From positions 1,056,001 through 1,120,000 of the forward strand of contig CAVVPN010000004.1 of NCBI GenBank assembly GCA_963750165.1: a stretch of DNA of 64,000 bases, read 5' to 3'. Source of the stretch: an uncultured Gemmataceae bacterium. GTDB lineage: Bacteria; Planctomycetota; Planctomycetia; Gemmatales; Gemmataceae. The translations under genes and the position numbers were made by a program. Every line of letters starts with the position of its first letter. Position 1 is the first letter of the stretch. The notes under the pieces were generated by a model. That model saw nothing but the letters and a program-made list of their open reading frames with translations, was not told the DNA's origin and did not search any database. Of the stretch, positions 37,856 through 52,118 are shown one piece after another.

Positions 37856-39331
37856 ATGCACCAGCCACGCTCCCACGGTCACCCCCTGCTCAACCGCCGC
37901 GCCTTCCTGCAAACCGCCGGCGGCCTTGGCAGCCTCGCGCTGATCAAGCTGCTCGCCGACCAGGGGCTGCTCGCCGACCCCATCCGGCCGAACATCCGCC
38001 CGGAGGCGCCGCTGGCGCCACGGCCGCCGCACTTTGAAGCGAAGGCGAAGCGCGTGCTGATGATCTTCTGTTCCGGAGCCGTCAGCCACGTCGATACCTT
38101 CGACTACAAGCCGGAACTGGTGCGGCGCGACGGGCAGGCGCTGCCGGGCGCGGATCGGCTGATTACCTTTCAGGGCGAGCAAGGCAACCTGGCGGCGCCG
38201 CGCTGGCGCTTTCGGCCGCGGGGACAGTCCGGGAAGATGATCTCCGACCTGTTGCCGAACCTCGCGGGGTTGGCGGACGACCTCTGTTTCATCCATTCGA
38301 TGACCGCCCGCTCCAACACGCACGGGCCGGCGGAAAACCAGATGTCCACCGGCTTCACGCTGGACGGCTTTCCGTCGATCGGCGCCTGGGTCAGTTATGC
38401 CCTGGGCAGTGAGAACGCCGACCTGCCGGCGTTCGTGGCGATCCCCGACCCGCGCGGGGTGCCGCAGGTGGGGCCGAACAACTGGGGCAGCGCCTTTCTG
38501 CCGGCCGTCTTTCAGGGGACCGCGTTCGGGGCGGATCGGCCGATTCCCCATCTGGCGCGGCCAGCCGAAATCACTCCGCAGGAGGACGAAGCGACGCGCG
38601 GTTTCTTGCGGGCGCTCAACGATGAGCATGCGCGACGGCACCCCGGCGACACGGAGTTGGCGGCGCGGATCGCCAGCTACGAATTGGCGGCGCGCATGCA
38701 ACTGCAGGCCGCCGAGGTCGGCGACCTGCGCGCGAACCGCGCCGGCCTGCTCGACCGCTACGGCTGTCACGATGCCAACCGCGTCAAGGCCGGCTTCGCG
38801 CGCAATTGTGTGCTGGCCCGTCGCCTGCTGGAGGCGGACGTCCGCTTCGTCCAGCTCTTCAACGGCGCCTACGCCATGGGCGAAGGGGTCGGCAACTGGG
38901 ACGGCCATCGCGCCATCAGAACCCAGTACGACGTCCACGGCCCCATCCTGGATCAGCCGTGCGCCGCCCTGGTGCGGGACCTGAAGCAGCGTGGCCTGTT
39001 GAGCGACACGCTGGTCGTCTGGGTGACGGAGTTTGGCCGCATGCCGACGTTTCAGCGCGGCGCGTCGGGCCGCGACCACAACCCGCATGGCTTCACCGTC
39101 TGGCTAGCCGGCGCCGGCGTCAAGCGCGGCTTCAGTTTTGGCGCAACCGACGAGTTCGGCTACCGGGCTGAGGAGCACCGCACGACCATCTACGACCTGC
39201 ACGCCACGATCCTGCATCTCCTGGGGTTGGATCACGAGCGGTTGAGCTTTTACCACAACGGCATCGAACGCCGGCTCACCGACGTGCACGGGCAGGTGGT
39301 GGAGGCTGTGCTGGCTGATGTCGGCGCTTAA
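37856..39331 (+). CDS. DUF1501 family protein
   Basis: [39 protein letters not shown]; the stop coincides with the IS end. Confidence 0.9.
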
Positions 39332-40048
39332 TACGGCTTTGTTACTTGGGGTGGACAGTCGTATAATGTGGTATGAAACCCACAACCCGAGTCCCGCTCG
39401 CGCCAGCCGAGCCGTTGCCTGCGCTTTCCTGGTGGCGCAGGCCCGGCGGGGCGGCGCGGCCCGGCGGGCCGACGCCGTGGTGGCGGCGCAGCCGGCCCGG
39501 GGTTGGCGGACGGTGCGCTGGCGCGAGGGCAGCAAGGGCTGGCTGCGGTGCCGCGCCGTGGCGCTGCGCTGCTGGCGGGTGCGGCCCGACGGCCGGCGGC
39601 GGGCCGGCTGGCTGCTCGGAGAGGACGGCAGCGACGGCAAGCGGCGCTACCACTGGAGCAACTGCGGCCGGCGCGCGTCGCTGGGGCGGTTGTTGGAGTA
39701 CGCGCACCGGCGGCACTGGGTGGAGCGCTACCACGAGGAGGCCAAGGGGCTGCTGGGCTGGGACCAGTATCAGGGGCGGCTGTGGACGGGCTTCCACCGC
39801 AACAGCGTGTTGGTGATGCTGGCCTACAGCTTTTTGGTCCAGCAGGAGTGGCAGGCACGGCAGCAGGTCAGCCGACGCGGGCGCCCGCGTCGGCCTTTTT
39901 CCCCCTCGGCCCGACCGCCGACGGGCGTCGCTGCCTGAGGTCCACCGCCGCGTCTGTGACTGGCTGCTGGACCAGGCACGGCGCGAGCTCAATAGTCGCG
40001 AACACATTGCGCACTTCCGCCCACTACTTAACTGACAAAGCCGTATTA
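39329..40048 (+). mobile_element. Internally deleted IS701-family element (720 bp)
   Basis: Inverted repeats TAATACGGCTTTGTTACTT / AACTGACAAAGCCGTATTA (17/19). Transposase C-terminus RHWVERYHEEAKGLLGWDQYQGRLW joined out of frame to a short N-terminus. Confidence 0.85.
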
Positions 40049-40064
40049 GGGTGCTTCGGTACAT

Positions 40065-40113
40065 TCGACCGAAGTATCCAGGGTGATTCGCGCAACCGAC
40101 TCCGGTCCGACAC
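40065..40113. repeat. Repeat family R1, copy C
   Basis: 43/49 to copy A; 16 bp from the IS701 right end. Confidence 0.85.
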
Positions 40114-40185
40114 ACCTAATTGCAGATCGTCCGAAGCTTCCAAAGCGTATTGCGGGCATCGCTCCCCATCAAGCAAAGCACCCGG

Positions 40186-41415: not shown

Positions 41416-42632
41416 GTGGAGTCCAACGAACCAGGAAAACAACTCGACCGGCGCGCGTGGCTGCGCTGGGCGGGAGCGACGGGCCTGGCCGGGCTGCTGC
41501 CGGCCGGATGTGGGCAGAGGCCGCAGGTGGCCCCGCCTGATTCGGCGCCGCTGATGCGCTTCCCGCAAAAAGTCGCGCTGCGCGTGCTCAGCGACCGCGC
41601 CCCCTGCCTGGAAACGCCCTGGCGCTACTTCCGCCACGACCTGACGCCCAACGAGGCCTTTTACGTCCGCTGGCACCTTGAAGCGATCCCGACGCGCGTG
41701 GACCTGGCGACCTGGCGGCTGCGCGTCGGCGGCCACGTCCGGCAGCCGCTGGCGCTGTCGCTGGACGACCTGCGCGGCATGGAGGCGGTCTCGGTGGTGG
41801 CGGTCAACCAGTGCTCGGGCAACTCGCGGAGTTTCTTCGCGCCGCGCGTGCCCGGCGGCCAGTGGTTCAACGGCGCGATGGGCAACGCCCGCTGGACGGG
41901 GGTCCGCCTCCGCGACCTGCTGCGGCGGGCGGAAGTGCGGGCCGGGGCGGTGCAGGTCTCCTTCAACGGCCTGGACGAGGGGCCGCTGCCGACGGTGCCC
42001 GACTTCATCAAGGCCCTCGACTTGGACCACGCCGAGCAGCCCGAGGTGCTGGTCGCTTACGAAATGAACGGCGCCCCGCTGCCGCTGCTGAACGGCTTCC
42101 CGGCGCGCCTGATAGTGCCCGGCTGGTACGCGACGTACTGGGTCAAGGCGCTGTCCGACATCATCGTGCTGGACCGCCGCTACACCGGCTTCTGGATGGC
42201 CAGTGCTTACCGCATTCCGACGACGCCCGGGGCGAACGAGACGCCGCAGGCGCTCGCCCCGGCCGCGGAGACGTGTCCGATCAACCGCATGAACGTCCGC
42301 TCGTTCTTCGTGCGCCCCGACCCAGACGCCCGGGTGCCGGCCGGCCAGGCTTGTCCGCTGGAGGGCATCGCCTTCGACGGCGGGGCCGGCATTCGCACGG
42401 TGGAAGTCTCGACCGACGGCGGCAGCTGGACGGCGGCGCGGCTGGGCGAGGACCTGGGCCGGTTCTCGTTCCGCCGCTGGCACGCCGAGTGGACGCCGCC
42501 GCGCGCGGCGACTACCGCTTGCAAGTCCGCGCCGTCAGCAACGCGAACGAGCGCCAGCCGACCCAGGCCAACTGGAACCGCGGCGGTTACATGCGCAACG
42601 TCATCGAGGAAATCCGCGTGACTTCGGAATGA
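41416..42632 (+). CDS. Sulfite-oxidase-family molybdoenzyme, SorA-like, Tat-exported (frameshift near 42500)
   Basis: DRRAWL Tat motif; FYVRWH, QCSGNSR, GAMGNARWTG, NGFPARLIVPGWY; the C-terminus WNRGGYMRN lies in another frame. Confidence 0.85.
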
Positions 42633-42669
42633 TGAATGATGAATTGTCTTCCATTCATTATTCAGCGTC

Positions 42670-42779
42670 TGTTCCAGAAGGGTTGGGGCCCGAGTTGGAG
42701 TCCCGGCTTGAGCCGGGTTTACAGCCGAACCCGGCTCAAGCCGGGACTCCAACCCCGACGGAACGCCCCTTTCGGAACA
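42670..42779. repeat. REP/MITE-like hairpin
   Basis: Perfect 26-bp arms at 42694-42719 and 42728-42753 inside imperfect outer arms TGTTCCAGAAGGG / CCCTTTCGGAACA. Confidence 0.8.
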
Positions 42780-42861
42780 ACCAAGTTCACGTGCGGGCCG
42801 AGTGGGCTGGGCGTGTCCGATTAACCTCAGATGGCCCGTCACGTGCAACGGTTGGTTCGGC
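42772..42861 (-). other. attC-like site 1
   Basis: Minus strand: GCCGAAC-5nt-GTTGCACGTG-A-CGGGCC...GGCCCG-CACGTGAAC-6nt-GTTCCGA, with two unpaired bases; 4 nt after the PIN stop. Confidence 0.8.
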
Positions 42862-42865
42862 CCGC

Positions 42866-43246
42866 CTACCGGATGTAGGGCTGGCCCGTCACGAGGCCGG
42901 GCACGATCCGGTAGTGCTTGTCGTTGAACGTACACAACTCTGCCGAAAGACCGACGGTGATGGCCGCGATCAGGGCGTCCAGCAACCCGAGTCCGTGCGA
43001 CAGGTGGAAGGCTGTAAAGTCGGCCAGTGCCCGCTGGCAGTCCGCGGTCGTCGGCCAGACGATGGGCAGGGGGGCGGTCAGTCGCAACACATCGCGAACC
43101 TGCCCGGCGTTCTGCGCCCCCTGGATCAACTCCATGACGACCAGCCCGGGCACAGTCGGCAGTTCAGTGAGGCCTGCGAACCAAGCCAGGGCGGCGGCGT
43201 GCCCGCGTTACACGTCGATCAGTACGTCGGTGTCGAGGACGAGCAT
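42866..43246 (-). pseudogene. PIN-domain (VapC-like) toxin with a premature TAA at codon 13
   Basis: MLVLDTDVLIDV*RGH...EL...DALIAA...TFNDKHY. Confidence 0.8.
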
Positions 43247-43251
43247 CGCGG

Positions 43252-43509
43252 TTAGGCTCCGCGGCGCTGCGCCCGATCGCGGAGGCGGCGGCCTTCCGCT
43301 TGGGCATCGGTAATGTCCGGTCGGCTGCCGACCAAGCCCTCGGCCCGCCAGAAGGCGACGAGGTCCGCACCGCTCCGAACCGCGGCCACGGCCGGCCGGG
43401 CGGACGTAAGTAGGCGAACGGCATAATCGGGCAGCGACAACCCCAGGCGCGATGCCTCGTCGGTCAGGGCCTCGGCCAGATCATCGGGTAGTTCAACGGT
43501 CTGAGGCAT
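43252..43509 (-). CDS. Putative antitoxin (RHH-like)
   Basis: MPQTVELPDDLAEALTDEASRLGLS; 5 nt upstream of the PIN gene. Confidence 0.7.
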   Translation of the reverse strand: MPQTVELPDDLAEALTDEASRLGLSLPDYAVRLLTSARPAVAAVRSGADLVAFWRAEGLVGSRPDITDAQAEGRRLRDRAQRRGA

Positions 43510-43610
43510 GGTTCGTCTCCCACGGCAGCGATTTTAACACCCCGATTTTCTATGGTCCCACGAACCGCCCCGGGCGTCAACAGCTCATCAGGACGGCCCT
43601 ACTTCAGAAG

Positions 43611-43699
43611 GCCGAACGCCCCAGTTCAGGTGCGGGCCACTCGACTCAATGTGTCCGTGTAGACTCAGTTGGCCCGTCACCTGCAGCCGCTGGTTCGGC
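43611..43699 (-). other. attC-like site 2
   Basis: GCCGAAC-5nt-GCTGCAGGTG-A-CGGGCCA...TGGCCCG-CACCTGAAC-6nt-GTTCGGC. Confidence 0.85.
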
Positions 43700-43741
43700 T
43701 CGGTATTTCTATCCGTTGGTGCTGGACCTCGCAATCTCCAT

Positions 43742-45424
43742 TTACCGCCTCAACAGGCGTGTTGACAGTGCGTCGCGTAGTGCCGCCTCGCGGGCGGCGA
43801 GGAAAGCGTCGAGGTTATTCTCCTCCATCGCTTTGATTCCATCAGCCGTGATAAAGTGCGCCTTAAACGTCAAGGCAAGCGACATCTTGTCACCCCCGTG
43901 GGAATCCAGGCAGACCTGAAGGAACTCTGCGGGCAACTTGTCGCTCTTTTTGCGGTTAGTGTCCTTGTGAATCACGGATAGACCAAAGATGTTCTTGGCC
44001 GCCGCGGGAAACTTCGACACCGGGAAGACGTGATCTACCTCGCAATCCTCCAGCTTGACCGATTGACCGTTGATGAAATCGGTCGCCCCATTAAGAACGA
44101 CCAGATTGTAGAATGCCTTAGCGAGTGCGGATGTGCGGGAGGCTTTTCGAATATCCGTAATGACGCTGGCAATGTCCGCCGTCATATAGGGAACAGCGGA
44201 ATCGTTTCCGAACCACGCGGCAACCGCCTTGTAATCAGCGTACGAGTGTGTCTCTACCGAACGAGCATAACGGCCGGTGAACACAGCTGTCCAGTACCAG
44301 CTGTCAATCTTGTCGTAAAACGCCTTCGCTCCGCCGAGAGATTGAGCCCTTTGAATGAGCGCTGCTAATGGGACGGCAATGCTCGTGTAAGGAAACAGGG
44401 GGATACGTTGTTTCTTCGCACGGAGTCGGACAGCGCCGTAGACGTCTCGCATCCGTGTAGCAGCTTTCTCAAGGTATTCGCGAGCGGCTTCCCACCGGTT
44501 GTAGAACTCTGCCTGGGCTTTGTTTTGATCAGCGCGCTGATCGACGAGCCCGAGAAGGTTCTTGTTTTTCGGCTCCCTCTCGTTGGACAGCGCCATTACG
44601 CGCAGCAGAGCCTCGGGTTCAACGATTTGCGGCTCGCCGCTCTTGATTTTTTGCTTTAGGTCGTTTAGCCGTATGCCGATCGGGTAGTACCGAGCTACTG
44701 CCAAATCGAAGATATCAAGGCGCGTACCGAGTCGGTTGATCCTCTCGAATGTACTCACGATCTCGTCGTCTGGCGTGTCGTGGGGCAGGGTGACGACGGC
44801 CACCTCATAATCAAGGATGCTCTGAAGAAGCCTGTTTAACTCGTCCCGTATGCCTGGCTCAATGGTGCTGCCGCGCGAATTCAGGTACTCGGTGAGCGTC
44901 TCCGGCGAGCGAAAAGACGCCATGCTCGGATAGCTCTGGACGTTGATGCCGGTATTTTGGACTAGAAACTCGAGGAATTTTTCCAAGAGCTTCTTCTCCT
45001 CCTTCGGGTGCAGCTTCCGGACGAGACCCTCGATCTTCTGAACTCCGACTACCTCTTGGCATCCAATCAAGTTGAGAAAGAACCGCGTAGGCAGAACCTC
45101 GTCTCGGAGCGAGACAGAAGGCTCGAAGAAAGCGTAAAAAAGGGAGGTAAGCCGCTGCTGCCCATCGAGGACGTAGCTAATGGTCACGTGGGTCTTCGGG
45201 TCAGCTTTTACCCCGGGAATCAAACGAGGAGCAAAGCGCAGGTTCGATGTCGGACTTTCAAGAAGCAGAAGAGTGCCAATGAAGTACCGATTGACGACCG
45301 AATTCAGGAGCTCCTCTACCTGTTTGAGAGTCCACACGAAATCACGTTGAAAGTCGGGAATGATTAGTTTCCCCGTACGAACGTCGTCAAGGAGTGACGG
45401 CAGTTTCCGTTCTTGGACTTGCAT
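43742..45424 (-). CDS. DUF262 plus HNH-like (GmrSD-type) putative restriction nuclease
   Basis: PDFQRDFVW, LDGQQRLTS, FERINRLG; C-terminal VDHVFP...N..KSDK; lower GC. Confidence 0.82.
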   Translation of the reverse strand: MQVQERKLPSLLDDVRTGKLIIPDFQRDFVWTLKQVEELLNSVVNRYFIGTLLLLESPTSNLRFAPRLIPGVKADPKTHVTISYVLDGQQRLTSLFYAFFEPSVSLRDEVLPTRFFLNLIGCQEVVGVQKIEGLVRKLHPKEEKKLLEKFLEFLVQNTGINVQSYPSMASFRSPETLTEYLNSRGSTIEPGIRDELNRLLQSILDYEVAVVTLPHDTPDDEIVSTFERINRLGTRLDIFDLAVARYYPIGIRLNDLKQKIKSGEPQIVEPEALLRVMALSNEREPKNKNLLGLVDQRADQNKAQAEFYNRWEAAREYLEKAATRMRDVYGAVRLRAKKQRIPLFPYTSIAVPLAALIQRAQSLGGAKAFYDKIDSWYWTAVFTGRYARSVETHSYADYKAVAAWFGNDSAVPYMTADIASVITDIRKASRTSALAKAFYNLVVLNGATDFINGQSVKLEDCEVDHVFPVSKFPAAAKNIFGLSVIHKDTNRKKSDKLPAEFLQVCLDSHGGDKMSLALTFKAHFITADGIKAMEENNLDAFLAAREAALRDALSTRLLRR

Positions 45425-45558
45425 AGGGGTCTCCGATGGGGCGGCTACGATGGGTCACAGTGAACTTCTACCGCGGGGAATGAAGTCGAACCTCGTGTCC
45501 ATCAGGATGCGATACAGTTCCTTCAATTCGGCTCTCGCCATGGCATACCCTCCGCGCC

Positions 45559-45620
45559 GCCGAACTGGTGATTCGTCCTCTGACGCTTGCCGCTTTGCTT
45601 CTCAGCGTTAATAGTTCGGC
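45559..45620 (-). other. attC-like site 3 (short, weak internal pairing)
   Basis: CGCCGAACT...AGTTCGGCG ends; 1 nt after the stop of the 45622 ORF. Confidence 0.55.
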
Positions 45621-45621
45621 G

Positions 45622-45993
45622 CTACTGACTCTCATCTGACACTTCAATGATCCGCGATCCCATCCCACGCGCCTCGGCGATTGCGGACTGAAAGTACTGG
45701 ACAGCAAATGCCGGATCGGGGATTGAATAGACGTGATCAGGCAGCCATTCAAGGTCTCGTTTGGCAGCTGAAAAGCTGTAGCGACCGAAGCGTTGCAGCT
45801 GATAACCAATGCGATTGTCGGACAATCGACGTTTCACGATTCGACGCGATTCACTGAAGCGATGAACGACAGCGCGGATAGTCGGTGGCTGGCCGACATA
45901 GTGGGCGTCGGGATTGACGATGTCCCGATGCTCAAACCCCGCATGTCGTTCGGAGTCCGTCAAATCCTCGGGGAACCAGTTCGAAGCCGCCAT
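45622..45993 (-). CDS. Hypothetical cassette protein (123 aa)
   Basis: GGAGG RBS just after GTTCGGC; bounded by attC-like sites. Confidence 0.6.
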   Translation of the reverse strand: MAASNWFPEDLTDSERHAGFEHRDIVNPDAHYVGQPPTIRAVVHRFSESRRIVKRRLSDNRIGYQLQRFGRYSFSAAKRDLEWLPDHVYSIPDPAFAVQYFQSAIAEARGMGSRIIEVSDESQ

Positions 45994-46024
45994 GATATCC
46001 TCCTTCAAGTGCTCCGCACCCTTT

Positions 46025-46152
46025 GCCGAACATGGTATTATTGCCAACTGCGCGGCCAATGCAACATTGCTTCGTCGGTTCTCGGCGTCTTTTTCGACGG
46101 ATTCCAACCTCGCGATGTTGCGTTATCCGCGCAGTTGTCAATAGCGTGCGCT
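46025..46152 (-). other. attC-like site 4 with a degenerate outer box
   Basis: 16/17 inverted repeat TATTGCCAACTGCGCGG / CCGCGCAGTTGTCAATA, inner GCAACAT/ATGTTGC, GTTCGGC at the cassette side. Confidence 0.5.
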
Positions 46153-46753
46153 GCACACGCTATCAAGACGACATTTTCGGGGCGGTACGCTGCCCTCAGG
46201 CGAGCGTACCGCCCCGAAAATCGGATTGCAAGGGAAAAAGCAAAAGGTCGTTTTCTACACTTGAAATCCGTTGTGTCTTACAGCGAAGCCCGCTCGCGCG
46301 TCCGAACAAGGATTAGGGCACGCCGCGCGCTCTATCAAGGATCGGTTTTCGGATTTTACGCTCCCAACAGGCGCCGGCGAAGCACGGCGCCTGTTGGGAG
46401 CGTAACCGCCCCGATTCCGAAATGCAAGAAGCGCGCGCCGGAAATCCGAAAAGCCACCGGCCGTGTCTCAAGAACCGCCTGAGAAAGCTACAATCCCGGG
46501 AGGTAATGTGCCTGAACAGCTTGTTAGTCGGCTTTCAAAAGCCGAGTATTACGGCCCAAAGCCGAGTAGCAAGGCCAAGTGGGAGGGTAAGGCCGTCGCC
46601 TTGCTATGTCAAGCGTCTAACTGACCGAGCAAATTCGTCACGCACTGCGTGACGAATCCGACGAGGCAGGTCCGGAGCGTCGGCGCCAAAATAATGTTTG
46701 GGCCTGACGGCGAATGGGGTATCCTGGACTCACCCCAACCCCGGAGGCGCGAC

Positions 46754-47059
46754 ATGGCACAGGTCCCCGCGTTGCAGGCGGCCTATGACGAGGTGGACAT
46801 CACCCCACCGCTGGGCGGTTCCATGCCCGGCTACTTCCGCGACCGATTGGCCACCGGCACGCTGGATCCGCTCAAGGCCAAGGCGCTCTACCTGCGGCGC
46901 GATACCGAGAGTGTTGCCCTGGTCGCCTGCGACCTGATCGGCGTGGGCGCCCCCATCGTCCGGCGCATCCGCACGGCCGTCGCCGGCCTGACCAAAAGCC
47001 CGCCGCGCCACGTCTGGGCGAAGACTGCGGCGGGGCTGCTCGAGGAACTGGCGGGCTGA
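46754..47059 (+). pseudogene. Neutral-ceramidase-like protein remnant (N-terminus joined to a C-terminal tail)
   Basis: VDITPPLGGSMPGYF...LDPLKAKAL...ALVACDLIG; breaks before the expected HTH motif. Confidence 0.65.
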
Positions 47060-47085
47060 GCCGATGCCGTGCGTTGCCAGCCGTT

Positions 47086-47233
47086 GCAAGGGCGTCAAAC
47101 CTGGCTCGCGTGGAGTTGGCGGCCTTGGCGGTCTTGCTCGAACCGGCAGCTTCAGGCATTGGCCGGCACGGCGCGGCAGGTCCGCCTGGCGCGGCGCGGC
47201 ACGTGACACGCCTGGCGGCCTTGGCGTTCTTGC
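47086..47233 (+). repeat. R3 terminal motif, copies 3 and 4
   Basis: GCAAGGGCGTC...TTGGCGGCC TTGGCGGTC TTGC (47086-47137) and CTGGCGGCC TTGGCGTTC TTGC ending at 47233. Confidence 0.7.
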
Positions 47234-47266
47234 TCATTATTCATCATTCCAGTGGAGGTGTCTGCC

Positions 47267-47659
47267 ATGATCCAGGCCGGCGGCAAGCAGCGCATGGTCG
47301 TCGTGCTGACGGCCCTCGTCGGCGTGACCGCCACCGCGGTCGCCTACCTCGGCACACGGCAGGACCAGCAACCGGCCGCGCCGCCGTCCGCGTCCGCCCC
47401 GGCCGGCGCCGCGTTCACCAGCGAAGTGATCGTGATGCCGCACGACGAGCCGGAATGGCCGCCGGGGCCTCACCAGCGCACCTTCCTCGCTAACTGCACG
47501 ATCTGCCACTCGACGCGCCTGGTGATGACGCAACCGTCGTTCCCGCGCGCGAAGTGGCAGGAGATCGTTCATAAGATGGTCAAGACCTACGGCGCCCCGA
47601 TCACCCACGAATCCGAACAGCAGATCGTCGAGTATCTGGTGACGGTTCGCGGCCAGTGA
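47267..47659 (+). CDS. Membrane-anchored monohaem cytochrome c, SorB-like
   Basis: NCTICHS...QP...WQEIVHKMVKTYGAPI; GGAGGT RBS. Confidence 0.82.
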   Translation: MIQAGGKQRMVVVLTALVGVTATAVAYLGTRQDQQPAAPPSASAPAGAAFTSEVIVMPHDEPEWPPGPHQRTFLANCTICHSTRLVMTQPSFPRAKWQEIVHKMVKTYGAPITHESEQQIVEYLVTVRGQ

Positions 47660-47685: not shown

Positions 47686-50385
47686 ATGAGCGCTGACGCC
47701 GCCGTCCCCGCCGACCTGCCCGCGACCGAGCACGGCCTGATCCGCGCTCACGGCCTGGCCGCGCTGGCGATGGTCGTCTACTCCGCACTGCTCGGCCTGG
47801 CGGTCGCGCTCAAGTTCCACTGGCCGGACTTCCTGGGCGACACCGCCTGGCTGACGTGGGGCCGGCTGCGCTACGGCCACACCCAGGGCATCTTTTTCGG
47901 CTGGCTCGGCAACGCTTTCCTGGCGTTCTTCTATCACGCCGTGCCGCGCCTCGCCGGTCGTCCCGTCACCAGCCGTGGGCTGGGCTGGCTGCTGTTCGCC
48001 GTCTGGAACTTCGGCGTCGTCATCCCCGGCTGGGTGCTGGTGCAGATCGGCATCAGTCAGCCGCTGGAGTGGGCCGAGTTCCCCATCGTCACCGACGTGT
48101 TTGTCGTGTTCGCCTTCGTGCTGACGGCGCTGCAATTCGTGCTGCCGTTCTTCCGCCGCGGCATCGCGAACCTGTATGTCTCGGCCTGGTACATTCTCGG
48201 CGGCACCGTGTTCACGCTGTTCGCCTACCCGGTCGGCAACTTCATGCCGGAACTGGTGCCCGGGGCGCGCGGGGCGACCTACAGCGGTCTGTGGATCCAC
48301 GACGCCATCGGTCTGTATGTCACGCCGTTCGCCGTGGCCATTGCCTATTTCGTCATCCCCACGGTCACCGGCCGGCCCATCTACAGCCACTTCCTGTCGA
48401 TGCTGGCGTTCTGGATGCTGTTCTTCATCTACCCGCTCAACGGCACGCACCACTTCCTCTTTTCCTCCATTCCCATGGAGGCCCAAATTGGGGCCATCGT
48501 CGCCTCGGTGTACCTCGGCATGGACGTGGTGCTAAACGTCAGTAACCTGCTGCTGTCGCTGCGCGGCTCCGCGCCGGTAGTGGCCCGCGACGTGCCGCTG
48601 CGCTTCGTCTGGGTGGGCATCGTTTCTTACCTGGTGGTGAGCTTGCAAGGTTCGCTGCAGGCGCTGATGCCGGTCAACCGCTTCGTCCACTTCACGGACT
48701 GGGTCATCGGCCACTCCCATCTGGCGATGATCGGCTTCGCCTCGTTCCTGGCGGTCGGCGGGCTGCTACACGCCTGGCAGCACACGGCCGGCCTGCGCTA
48801 CAACGCCCACGCCGCCAACTGGGCGTTCTGGCTGCTGGCGGTCGGGCTGGCCGCGATGGTCAGCGACCTGACGGCCGCGGGGCTGGTGCAGGGCCAGCTC
48901 TGGCAGTCCGAGGCGCCCTGGATCGATTCGGTCAGCGCCTCGCAGCCGTTCTGGGTTTCGCGGTCGCTGGCGGGACTGCTGGTGCTGGCTGGGTTCGGCG
49001 CCCTCTGCCTGACCGTGTTGACCGGCCCCGTCGGCGAGGTCTCAGAAGTCAGAGAACAGAAGTCAGAAGCCAGGAGTCAGGAGTCAGAGAGCGGTTCTCC
49101 GCTGACTTCTGACCGCTGTCCTCTGATCTCTGAAGCCGAGAGCCATCGCCGCGCCCTGCCCTGGTTGAAGAGCGCCTACGTACTGACCGGTGTGGCGGGC
49201 TTCGGCTGCTTCCTGTTCTCGTTCGTGGTGCTGGCCGTCTGGCCCAACCAGGCGCTGGAACAGGAGATGGACGCCAGCCGGCCGCCGGGCCTGCCGCCGC
49301 TGACCGACGCCGAGCTGCGCGGCCGCGCGATCTATGGCCGCGAGGGCTGCCTCAACTGTCATTCGCAACTGGTCCGGTCCACCACCGACGACGTGCGCCG
49401 CTTCGGCCTCGCGAGCCAGGCGTGGGAGACGGAGAAGGAGTTTCCGCAGTTGTGGGGCACGCGCCGCATCGGCCCCGACCTGGCGCGTGAGTCCGGCAAG
49501 CGGCCGCGTGACTGGCACCTGACCCATCTGTGGAACCCGCGCTGGGTCGTGCCCGAATCCAACATGCCGGCTCATCCGTGGCTCTTCGACAGCTCGCCGC
49601 TCCGGCCGACGCAGGAGGCGCTCGACCTGGTGGCTTACCTGGAGTCACTGGGCCGCGACGCGCGCCTGGCCGGCACGCTGGAACGCGGCCCCGGTCGGAA
49701 AATGGACCCGGCCGAGGAGGAGCGCATGGGCGTCTTCTGTGACTGCGCCATCCCGCGCACGGCCGGCCCGGCGGTGCTGCTCTCGACGGACCTGCCGCCC
49801 GCCGAGTTGCTGCGTTTCGAGCTGCGCGGGGCAGCCGTCTTCGCACGTCACTGCGGCGGTTGCCACGGATCGGGCGGCAAGGGCGACGGGCCCGCGGCGG
49901 TGAGCCTGCTGCCGGCGCCGCGCGACCTGACGCAAGCGCGTTTCTCGGACGCCGCGCTGAGCCGGGTCCTGTGGGGAGGGGCCCGCGGCTCGTCGATGCC
50001 CGGCTGGCATGAGTTACCCGTGAACGACCTGCGGGCGCTGGCGGCCCACGTCCGCACGCTGGAGGAACGGCCCCCACAGGCGGAGCGGGAGCCTGTGCTC
50101 TCGGCCGAGGAACGCGGTCAGGCCGAACTGTTGTACGCGACGAACTGCGTGACGTGTCACGGCCCGCGTGGACAGGGCGACGGCACCGCGGCAGGTGCCC
50201 TGGCCCCGCGACCGACCGACTTCGGCCAGGTGCGCCCGAGCCTGGCCTACGCCGAGCACGTGCTGGCAGAGGGCGTACCCGGGACCGCCATGCCACCGTG
50301 GCGGTCGCCGCCGGTCGCCGCCCAGCGCCGCCTGCTGGCGCGCTACGTCCGCACGCTGTACCAACCCGCACCCTCACCCCGCTAA
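47686..50385 (+). CDS. ccoNO: cbb3-type oxidase fusion: CcoN + CcoO + dihaem cytochrome c
   Basis: WGRLRYGH, WIHDAIG, YPLNGTHH, DWVIGHSH; YGREGCLNCHSQ, WGTRRIGPDL; CGGCH and CVTCH. Confidence 0.85.
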   Translation: MSADAAVPADLPATEHGLIRAHGLAALAMVVYSALLGLAVALKFHWPDFLGDTAWLTWGRLRYGHTQGIFFGWLGNAFLAFFYHAVPRLAGRPVTSRGLGWLLFAVWNFGVVIPGWVLVQIGISQPLEWAEFPIVTDVFVVFAFVLTALQFVLPFFRRGIANLYVSAWYILGGTVFTLFAYPVGNFMPELVPGARGATYSGLWIHDAIGLYVTPFAVAIAYFVIPTVTGRPIYSHFLSMLAFWMLFFIYPLNGTHHFLFSSIPMEAQIGAIVASVYLGMDVVLNVSNLLLSLRGSAPVVARDVPLRFVWVGIVSYLVVSLQGSLQALMPVNRFVHFTDWVIGHSHLAMIGFASFLAVGGLLHAWQHTAGLRYNAHAANWAFWLLAVGLAAMVSDLTAAGLVQGQLWQSEAPWIDSVSASQPFWVSRSLAGLLVLAGFGALCLTVLTGPVGEVSEVREQKSEARSQESESGSPLTSDRCPLISEAESHRRALPWLKSAYVLTGVAGFGCFLFSFVVLAVWPNQALEQEMDASRPPGLPPLTDAELRGRAIYGREGCLNCHSQLVRSTTDDVRRFGLASQAWETEKEFPQLWGTRRIGPDLARESGKRPRDWHLTHLWNPRWVVPESNMPAHPWLFDSSPLRPTQEALDLVAYLESLGRDARLAGTLERGPGRKMDPAEEERMGVFCDCAIPRTAGPAVLLSTDLPPAELLRFELRGAAVFARHCGGCHGSGGKGDGPAAVSLLPAPRDLTQARFSDAALSRVLWGGARGSSMPGWHELPVNDLRALAAHVRTLEERPPQAEREPVLSAEERGQAELLYATNCVTCHGPRGQGDGTAAGALAPRPTDFGQVRPSLAYAEHVLAEGVPGTAMPPWRSPPVAAQRRLLARYVRTLYQPAPSPR
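49042..49133. repeat. Heptamer inverted repeat inserted in frame in the CcoN-CcoO linker
   Basis: Seven TCAGAAG-like units followed by about 4.5 CTGACTT-like units. Confidence 0.85.
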
Positions 50386-50756: not shown

Positions 50757-50986
50757 CGAAGGCGATGGTGTTGGTATCGGTCGAATCGAGCCGGCGACTT
50801 GATCGGTTTTTTCGACCTCCCCCTGGCGGCGACACCACCAAAGTTGGCCTCCTTTTTTTCAGACGATGAAGCATCCTTTACTTTTGGTTCACCTCAACTT
50901 TAAGGTGACGCGCTATCCTTATTGGATAGGGACACGGCAACCAAGTCGCCTTGTGGGTCTGCCCGATCCAACGGACGGAGGCCATT

Positions 50987-52118
50987 ATGGAAGACCGGAC
51001 GGAGGCCATTATGGAAGACCGAGCGGGGTTCAGCGCCCGCCTGTCGCACTTGATCCACCACCACTTCCTCTGGCTGCTGATCGGCGCGTACGCCGTCGCC
51101 GCCGTGCTGCCGGGGCCGGGTGCCTGGATCCGCGGAGTGAGTCTTGGGGAACTCACCCTGTTCGGCGAGCACGTGCATCTCACGCTGCCGACGGTCATGC
51201 TCGGCCTGCTGCTGCTCAACGCCGGGCTGGGCATTCGCGCGCGCCGGCTGCTCCGCCTGGCTCGCAACCCGCTCATCCTGGCCGCAGGATTGCTGGCGAA
51301 CGTGGTCGTGCCGGTCGCCTTCATCCTCGGAGTGGCACAAACCATGCAACTGTGGCACAATGCCGACGAGGTGCAGAACATCCTGGTCGGGCTGGCGCTG
51401 GTCGCCTCCATGCCGGTGGCGGGCTCGTCCACCGCCTGGTCGCAGAACGCCAACGGCGACCTGGCGCTGAGCCTGGGGCTGGTGGTGTGCTCCACCTTCC
51501 TGAGTCCGCTCACCACCCCGGCGGCGCTCGAGCGCCGTCGGCTGGATGGCGAACGGCGTCTACGCCGAGGGGCTGCGCACCCTGGCGGGCGGCGGCACTG
51601 GTTTGTTCCTGGCGGCGTTCGTGCTGCTGCCGTCCCTGCTCGGCATGGGCGGCCGCGGCCTCGTGGGGAAGGCGCCGCTCGCCCGGGCGCGGCCGACGCT
51701 CAAGCTGCTCAACTCGGTCAACCTGCTGGCGCTGAGTTACGCCAACGCCTCGGTGGCCCTGCCGCGGGTGGTGGCCGAACCCGACTGGGATTTCCTGGGC
51801 GTGATCCTTGTGATCGTTCTGGCCATGTGCGCGCTGGGGTTCACGTCGGGGTGGCTGGTGGCGCGGCTGTTCCGCGCGGACCCGGGGCGGCGGGCGTCCC
51901 TGGTATTCGGGTTGGGGATGAACAATAATGGCACTGGGCTGGTGCTGGCCGCGGCGGCGCTGCCACACTTGCCGGGTGTGCTGCTGCCGGTCATCTTCTA
52001 CAACCTCGCGCAACACGTGGTGGCCGGGATCGCTGACAGGCTTGCTGACCGGGGCAACCCCACCTTCCCGGGTTCGCCCGAGGGCGTCGTGATCTGCCCG
52101 CAGATGAGCGCCGCTTAA
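50987..52118 (+). CDS. Bile acid:Na+ symporter family protein (frameshift near 51530)
   Basis: MPVAGSSTAWS...GDLALS...TFLSPLTTP, then GLGMNNNGTG in the next frame. Confidence 0.8.

What the first reader, a model, noticed from the sequence alone, without database searches (positions are those of the whole stretch)
42626..47266. One-ended insertion with a 10-bp target duplication splits a sorA-sorB-cbb3 operon
Seen: TCATTATTCA occurs at 42655-42664 and again at 47234-47243. Deleting 42665-47243 rebuilds the hairpin GGAATGATGAATGATGAAT-TGTCTTCC-ATTCATTATTCATCATTCC and places sorB 55 bp after sorA. The 4569-bp insert has no transposase, no integrase and no terminal inverted repeat. Its only distinctive end is (TTGGCNNCC)n-TTGC, flush against the right duplication. 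Established: DDE transposons give duplications but have two matched ends; IS91/Helitron-like elements are one-ended but give no duplication. Inference: a non-autonomous, one-ended cargo-capture element mobilised in trans by an unidentified enzyme.
Basis: partly seen in the sequence, partly recalled or inferred. Interest (0 to 1): 0.9.

Follow-up and report, generated by a model that had tools for sequence, protein, structure and literature searches.

The report
Integron cassettes nested in IS5 mini-transposon
The 4.6-kb insert that splits this respiratory operon is a nest of known mobile parts (a tiny transposon relic split open by a promoter-plus-gene-cassette block, with some bystander DNA), most likely moved by enzymes encoded elsewhere in the same genome rather than by an unknown new element.

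Summary
The 10-bp repeat, 4,569-bp insert, rebuilt hairpin and 55-bp sorA-sorB gap are real. The TTGGC motif occurs 257-259 times, continues as conserved repeat sequence and shows no excess of flanking duplications (17 vs 14 of 257). The LEFT end is the terminal inverted repeat of an IS5-family MITE; an intact three-copy IS5 with matching ends and 3-bp TNA duplications is in the genome. The MITE's right end is split by a 3,739-bp G|TT-bounded integron block: a promoter/attI-like unit plus cassettes (GmrSD-like, VapBC) with attC sites of this genome's own integron. The last 707 bp are passenger DNA. Most likely (about 0.5) the split right end forced a one-ended IS5-type jump, and 10 bp = 3-bp TNA plus one 7-bp unit of the target repeat. 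The promoter/attI-like unit occurs at 19 loci, 10 heading cassettes (0.13 expected). This scan has noted such integrase-less landing pads in other genomes; here the rebuilt target supports IntI moving the platform itself. No same-species empty allele or reads were found.

The parts
41416..42632 (+). sorA-like molybdopterin oxidoreductase; reading frame shifts near 42500 (may be an assembly error); start codon uncertain
   Evidence: PF00174 and PF03404; frames
42626..42664 (+). Left part of a heptamer-repeat hairpin, the target; remainder at 47244-47250
   Evidence: I17; 8 hairpins matched a loose pattern, one close relative at C3:288067
42655..42664 (+). Left copy of the 10-bp direct repeat; its last 3 bases (TCA) are the TNA triplet flanking the MITE end
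42665..42777 (+). IS5-family MITE, left 113 bp: TIR 42665-42682, REP-like core hairpin 42694-42753, inner part of right TIR
   Evidence: family in 28 of 200 related genomes; natural ends and TNA flanks; 14 of 18 identical to the TIR of the genome's IS5 (by eye)
42778..46516 (-). Integron block of 3,739 bp bounded by G|TT crossovers at both ends, inserted at an attG-type site inside the MITE's right TIR
   Evidence: removal rejoins a family-type end (pattern precedes 502 of 235,310 GTT in the genome)
42775..42861 (-). attC site ending the toxin-antitoxin cassette
   Evidence: z -2.7
42866..43246 (-). PIN/VapC-like bacterial toxin gene, premature stop at codon 13; the copy at C11:416 kb is open
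43252..43509 (-). VapB-like antitoxin (weak hit); whole cassette 95.5% identical to C11:415650-416516
43611..43699 (-). attC site ending the GmrSD-like cassette
   Evidence: z -3.4
43742..45424 (-). GmrSD_N (DUF262) protein with weak HNH, 560 aa; probable anti-phage nuclease
   Evidence: PF03235 E 3e-28; PADLOC HEC-05 and PDC-M55C hits
45559..45620 (-). Short atypical attC-like site
   Evidence: R'' and R' boxes, fold z -2.4; not hit by the attC models
45622..45993 (-). 123-aa cassette ORF of unknown family
   Evidence: no hit in NCBIfam or PADLOC; the longer ORF containing it has no Pfam hit
46025..46306 (-). Second promoter-like unit (-35 at 46231, -10 at 46208) with two hairpins, ending in an attI-like G|TT at 46031
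   Evidence: hairpin homologue at C12:652769-652875; function inferred
46300..46516 (-). Promoter/attI-like platform unit: -35 at 46427, -10 at 46404 (17-bp spacer), attI-like core with crossover at 46307, upstream boundary G|TT at 46517
   Evidence: 21 hits at 19 loci; alignment; 3' end resembles the real attI, E 0.026
46517..46526 (+). Outer 7 bp of the MITE's right TIR plus its TTA flank
46527..47233 (+). Passenger DNA, 707 bp, without a mobility signature of its own
46754..47059 (+). Internally deleted gene remnant (1,039 bp lost at an 11-12-bp near-repeat); 91% identical to C11:2207563-2208925, 16 synonymous vs 4 non-synonymous codon differences in 88 codons
47066..47233 (+). Truncated copy of the dispersed TTGGC-motif repeat (two units 96 bp apart); other copies continue about 20 bp further
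47234..47243 (+). Right copy of the 10-bp direct repeat; first 2 bases may be microhomology with the repeat
47267..47659 (+). sorB-like monohaem cytochrome c
   Evidence: weak Pfam haem hits; relatives
47686..50385 (+). cbb3-type cytochrome c oxidase fusion (COX1, FixO, CBB3)

Best explanation
The insert was built in layers and then moved once. SHOWN BY SEQUENCE: (1) a 120-bp IS5-family MITE; (2) a 3,739-bp block (promoter/attI-like platform plus three cassettes and a second promoter unit) sitting at a G|TT site inside the MITE's right inverted repeat, splitting it; (3) 707 bp of passenger DNA beyond the MITE, ending in a cut-off repeat. INFERRED: the genome's integron integrase inserted the block by attC x attG recombination of a circle that carried its own promoter and attI. 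With its right end split, the MITE had one usable end. An IS5 transposase acting in trans joined that left end to a TCA triplet in the sorA-sorB hairpin and carried the cassettes and the donor's flank along. The far junction was closed without a transposon end, probably by repair at a 2-3-bp microhomology one heptamer out of register, giving 3 + 7 = 10 duplicated bases. Confidence: anatomy about 0.9, IntI origin of the block about 0.85, one-ended IS5-type move about 0.5.
For: Left junction lies exactly at the natural MITE end after TNA. Three identical intact IS5 copies in the genome have matching TIRs and TAA/TTA/TAA duplications; IS1031-type IS5 elements prefer TNA (PMC1676026 passage). One intact IntI with a 45-attC array lies about 50 kb away and the insert's attC sites are of the same type. 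The block's upstream G|TT was placed independently by aligning platform copies (8 of 21 rows), and its removal yields a family-type MITE end, a 0.2% pattern. attC x attG insertion at GWT and excision with neighbouring DNA are experimentally known (bioRxiv 10.1101/2022.09.11.507474 passages). The MITE flanks differ (TCA left, TTA right), as expected if they come from different targets. The gene remnant shows microhomology-type deletion inside the insert.
Against: No donor locus and no same-species empty allele were found. Flank mismatch is not diagnostic: 5 of 24 intact end pairs of this family also mismatch (11 pairs, 13 counted by eye from the listed rows; 55 rows were not shown), and the insert has decayed by a few percent. 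The right junction has no cryptic TIR (6 of 18, reached by 33% of passenger positions). I found no paper showing one-ended transposition by IS5 (listing only). The 3+7 arithmetic rests on one case. The rejoined outer right TIR matches the left TIR at only 7 of 11 bases.
Confidence: 0.52

Rival explanations
1. Local nesting: the 707-bp passenger arrived first by replication template switching or other microhomology capture at the hairpin, creating the 10-bp repeat; the MITE then hit the TCA at its left junction (right copy later mutated to TTA) and IntI added the block in place.
For: Possible microhomologies at both junctions; TNA-rich hairpin in a 66% GC genome; about 4% decay of the TA cassette; 5 of 24 family pairs have unequal flanks.
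Against: Needs the MITE to hit the exact junction and a later mutation in the 3-bp flank; no Ku gene was found for end-joining capture (genome 93% complete).
Confidence: 0.2
2. Eroded two-ended event: a larger composite or cointegrate with a second IS5-type end inserted with an ordinary TCA duplication; a later deletion removed the right end, and a slip in the heptamer repeat added 7 bases.
For: Uses only standard IS5 chemistry; the insert has suffered at least one microhomology deletion; the repeat is truncated at the junction.
Against: Needs a separate heptamer slip that copies the variant unit and a deletion ending within a few bases of the duplication; the 10-bp deletion restores an exactly symmetric hairpin.
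Confidence: 0.17
3. One reading: the TTGGC motif is the single recognised end of a new element moved by an unknown enzyme that makes 10-bp duplications.
For: The motif abuts the right repeat.
Against: 257-259 copies continue into conserved repeat sequence; no excess of flanking duplications; 37 of 191 loci lie between a different pair of inverted ends; the left end is the real transposon end.
Confidence: 0.04
4. Misassembly or chimeric contig.
For: The assembly has frameshifts in sorA and in the C11 gene; no reads could be laid.
Against: The insert is unique in the assembly apart from diverged repeats, lies in a 1.34-Mb contig, and its inner junctions fit IS5 and IntI rules to the base.
Confidence: 0.04

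Closest known systems
CALIN/SALIN cassettes inserted at attG sites (Cury et al. 2016, PMC4889954; bioRxiv 10.1101/2022.09.11.507474; passages read)
   Same: Two or more attC sites without a nearby intI, IntI encoded elsewhere in the genome, insertion at a GTT (GWT) site, no target duplication.
   Different: The block carries its own promoter/attI-like head, bounded upstream by G|TT; the attG paper's passages describe plain cassettes and report that attI does not recombine with genome sites.
MITE- or IMU-mobilised integrons (PMC3575428, passages read)
   Same: Non-autonomous ends, transposase in trans, integron cargo, target duplication.
   Different: Those have two whole MITE copies flanking a class 1 integron; here one MITE is split from within by the cassette block, and passenger DNA lies beyond it.
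One-ended DDE modules: ISEcp1/ISEc9 and IS1380 TMos (PMC12116815, PMC3281130, passages read)
   Same: One true end, adjacent DNA carried along, direct repeat at the target.
   Different: They encode their own IS1380 transposase, use a weak alternative inverted repeat and give 4-5 bp; here the end is IS5-type, no enzyme is carried, no cryptic end was detected, and the repeat is 10 bp.
IS5 family, TNA-targeting (IS1031-like) elements and their MITEs
   Same: TIR sequence, TNA flank, intact partner IS in the genome.
   Different: A normal copy has two intact ends and a 3-bp duplication; this one has a split right end and unequal flanks. The IS1031 subgroup label is inferred from TNA preference, not from a tree.

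Membership tests
CALIN (integron cassette array without integrase) | At least two attC sites | tested here: met
   42775-42861 and 43611-43699 match the genome's attC model and fold; my own nhmmer model, not IntegronFinder
CALIN (integron cassette array without integrase) | No intI nearby | tested here: met
   Nearest intI fragment about 87 kb and intact intI about 96 kb from the insert; array edge about 50 kb
attG insertion by IntI | G|TT crossover at both ends, target restored without duplication | tested here: met
   42778 and 46517; rejoined MITE end
attG insertion by IntI | Catalysis by this IntI | not testable with these tools
   needs a recombination assay
attI/Pc integron platform | L and R boxes with cassettes joined at G|TT | tested here: met
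   conserved TAAT-N-GTT core, variable DNA after it, 10 of 19 loci with co-oriented attC within 4 kb vs 0.13 random
attI/Pc integron platform | Adjacent intI gene | tested here: not met
   no tblastn hit near any copy; one copy has a short intI-like start seen by eye
attI/Pc integron platform | Active promoter and recombination as double-stranded site | not testable with these tools
   -35/-10 conserved at 17 bp but not listed by the sigma-70 scan
IS5-family MITE | TIRs shared with an autonomous IS5 | tested here: met
IS5-family MITE | Identical 3-bp TNA duplication on both sides | tested here: not met
   TCA left, TTA right; 19 of 24 family pairs match
ISEcp1/TMo-type one-ended module | Own IS1380 transposase | tested here: not met
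   no transposase hit among insert ORFs
ISEcp1/TMo-type one-ended module | Alternative end resembling the TIR | tested here: not met
   6 of 18, background level
IS91/ISCR rolling-circle elements | No target duplication, ori/ter ends, HUH enzyme | tested here: not met
   10-bp repeat present; the 4 Y1_Tnp matches in the genome are far from the locus; ori/ter motifs not searched

The most novel reading that the evidence does not exclude
The integron platform itself is an IntI substrate: a roughly 210-bp promoter-attI module bounded upstream by G|TT travels at the head of cassette circles to attG sites, seeding at least 10 integrase-less satellite integrons served by one IntI. At this locus it split the inverted repeat of an IS5 MITE and turned it into a one-ended mobiliser that carried a self-expressing defence array into a respiratory operon.
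Probability: 0.4. Interest if true: 0.65.

Novelty: new variant of a known kind. Interest (0 to 1): 0.4.

Why it matters
The proposed new transposon class is not there. What remains is a base-resolved example of how integrase-less cassette clusters arise and stay expressed. Their origin is an open question in the CALIN papers read here. The rebuilt MITE gives a known empty target, which shows that promoter, attI-like site and cassettes arrived together at a G|TT. That makes trans-acting spread of integron platforms directly testable with a 210-bp sequence and one integrase. If the one-ended step holds, IS5 MITEs would join the IS1380 family as single-end gene mobilisers.

Tried and rejected
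Rfam: five weak miRNA-hairpin matches, all below gathering score. Sequencing runs: none was listed, so no reads were laid. Platform unit: not found in 200 family genomes by DNA search nor, by my profile, beside intI in 29 loci of relatives. Ku-type end joining: no Ku match. Cryptic right TIR: background. Idea that platform unit and TTGGC repeat are two ends of one element: strict motif within 3 kb at only 2 of 23 hits; a looser profile adds C11:843 kb; rejected as unsupported. intI remnants beside platform copies: none by tblastn. Sigma-70 scan: 2 sites vs 1.3 expected, neither the proposed Pc. Literature searches for multiple integrase-less attI platforms and for one-ended IS5 transposition listed nothing on point; only listings were seen for these, the library lacks most subscription journals, and no supplements were read. 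Earlier-findings look-ups by place and sequence gave nothing on this locus. Empty attG sites at other platform loci were listed but not rebuilt.
Full report
Observation. The window lies in contig C4 of a 9.6-Mb, 12-contig genome; an earlier unchecked note calls the host a Gemmata-like planctomycete. TCATTATTCA is at 42655-42664 and 47234-47243. It occurs 6 times on both strands of the genome, so the pair is not chance. Removing the insert and one copy restores a symmetric heptamer-repeat hairpin and a 55-bp sorA-sorB gap. The operon is contiguous in G002 and G004, nearly so in G015, and in 15 of 17 metagenome loci. These relatives are distant; none shows the empty allele of this species, and no reads were available.

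The right end is not an element end. The TTGGC motif has 257-259 copies at 191 loci. After it the sequence continues in a conserved way (TG in 198, TC in 39 of 259). The next 10 bases have an upstream copy within 20 kb in 17 of 257 cases against 14 downstream controls. At 37 of 191 loci the motif lies between another pair of inverted ends, so it is internal to a MITE-like repeat. The copy at 47066-47233 belongs to a diverged two-unit form and stops about 20 bases short of its relatives.

The left end is. 42665-42777 belongs to a hairpin family found in 28 of 200 related genomes. Intact copies have 11-18-bp inverted ends flanked by TNA. The end pattern occurs in 36 of 201 genomes with 0 in the reversed control rows shown. 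The genome holds three identical IS5 elements (NF033580, 224 bits) with the same type of end and TAA, TTA and TAA duplications. A passage of PMC1676026 gives TNA as the IS1031-subgroup target. The insert begins exactly at this end, directly after TCA.

Most of the insert is integron DNA. Two attC sites (43611-43699, 42775-42861) match dozens in the genome, which has one intact IntI (C4:1198898, 426 bits) and a 45-site array; 40 further attC hits are scattered in 27 clusters. The cassettes, on the minus strand, are a 123-aa unknown ORF with a short attC-like site, a GmrSD_N/HNH-like protein, and a VapBC-like pair whose toxin has a premature stop and whose near twin (95.5%) lies in another array. 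Upstream are two promoter-like units. The outer one (46300-46516) has 21 hits at 19 loci. Its 3' end resembles the real attI (E 0.026), and unrelated genes follow its G|TT. Ten of 19 loci have a co-oriented attC within 4 kb against 0.13 at random, maximum 3 in 2,000 draws; nine have none detected. Eight of 21 aligned rows share an upstream G|TT about 210 bp before the attI-like site, beyond which they diverge; three near-identical rows have GTG there.

The key join. Taking out 42778-46516, from the last attC crossover to that upstream G|TT, rejoins the MITE: its right end continues at 46517-46523 and is followed by TTA. The TNA-N4-CT pattern precedes only 502 of 235,310 GTT triplets. So platform and cassettes entered together, without duplication, at a GTT inside the MITE's right inverted repeat. 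This fits attC x attG recombination, shown experimentally for IntI1-3, including excision with neighbouring DNA (bioRxiv 10.1101/2022.09.11.507474, passages). That this IntI did it is inference.

Passenger. 46527-47233 holds 230 bp of unassigned DNA, a gene remnant 91% identical to C11:2207563-2208925 with mostly synonymous differences and a 1,039-bp deletion at a short near-repeat, and the cut-off repeat. I recall such genes as ceramidase-like; no family hit was obtained.

How it got here. Both outer junctions sit at TCA, and the target is a 7-bp repeat, so 10 = 3 + 7. I favour a one-ended IS5-type move (about 0.5): the split right end left one usable TIR, which was joined at TCA, with the far side closed by microhomology one heptamer out of register. 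This accounts for the exact left end, the unequal MITE flanks, the passenger and the truncated repeat in one event. Against it: 5 of 24 intact family pairs also have unequal flanks, there is no cryptic end, no donor was found, and my search listed no paper on one-ended IS5 transposition. Local nesting (0.2) and an eroded two-ended insertion (0.17) remain open.

Comparison. One-ended transposition with a duplication is known for ISEcp1/ISEc9 and IS1380 modules, MITE-flanked integrons are known, and CALINs from secondary-site insertion are known; all from passages, no supplements. I saw no description of a G|TT-bounded promoter-attI module spreading in one genome, but six earlier notes of this scan describe dispersed integrase-less landing pads in other genomes (unchecked); one of them explains them as remnants of deleted integrons, which fits at least the copy at C11:414.9 kb here.

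Verdict. The residual interest is the rebuilt target showing platform-plus-cassette movement and a possible single-end IS5 event. New variant of a known kind; interest 0.4.

Noticed in passing
G000:C4:1150105-1199911: Sedentary chromosomal integron with about 45 attC sites; IntI of 441 aa has a duplicated N-terminal domain; attI has four tandem 20-bp repeats.
   Followed up: partly
G000:C4:1189720-1190720: A 1-kb, 97.5%-identical copy of the 5' intI, promoter and attI (one 20-bp repeat fewer) sits inside the array next to a hairpin repeat and a truncated attC, with a short shared word at the junction.
   Followed up: partly
G000:C11:455271-455595 and C12:1301421-1301793: Tandem promoter/attI-like units; the inner type has a near-consensus -35 and sits at the outer unit's G|TT like a gene-less promoter cassette.
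   Followed up: partly
G000:C11:842142-843600: Another satellite with cassettes, an attI-like site with tandem repeats, a TTGGC-type repeat and an intact copy of the same MITE within 1.5 kb.
   Followed up: partly
G000 genome-wide, 191 loci: Abundant TTGGC-motif repeat; 37 loci lie in 190-425-bp MITE-like elements with TAG..CTA-type inverted ends; no autonomous partner found among end pairs 700-2,500 bp apart.
   Followed up: partly
G000:C11:414600-414760: Short intI-like start beside a platform copy, seen by eye, suggesting a deleted integron.
   Followed up: no
window 39318-40115: Transposase-like fragments, IS701-type by recalled motif; no Pfam hit for the 206-aa ORF.
   Followed up: no
window about 42500; G000:C11 about 2208000; window 50951-52118: Frameshifts in sorA, in the C11 paralogue of the remnant and in a membrane-protein gene; may be long-read indel errors.
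   Followed up: no
window 47686-50385: cbb3 oxidase subunits fused in one 899-aa ORF with a low-complexity linker that looks repeat-derived.
   Followed up: no
G198:C1 (listing): 2 of 4 paired full-length IS5 copies have unequal TNA flanks, hinting at frequent single-end rearrangements in this IS family.
   Followed up: no
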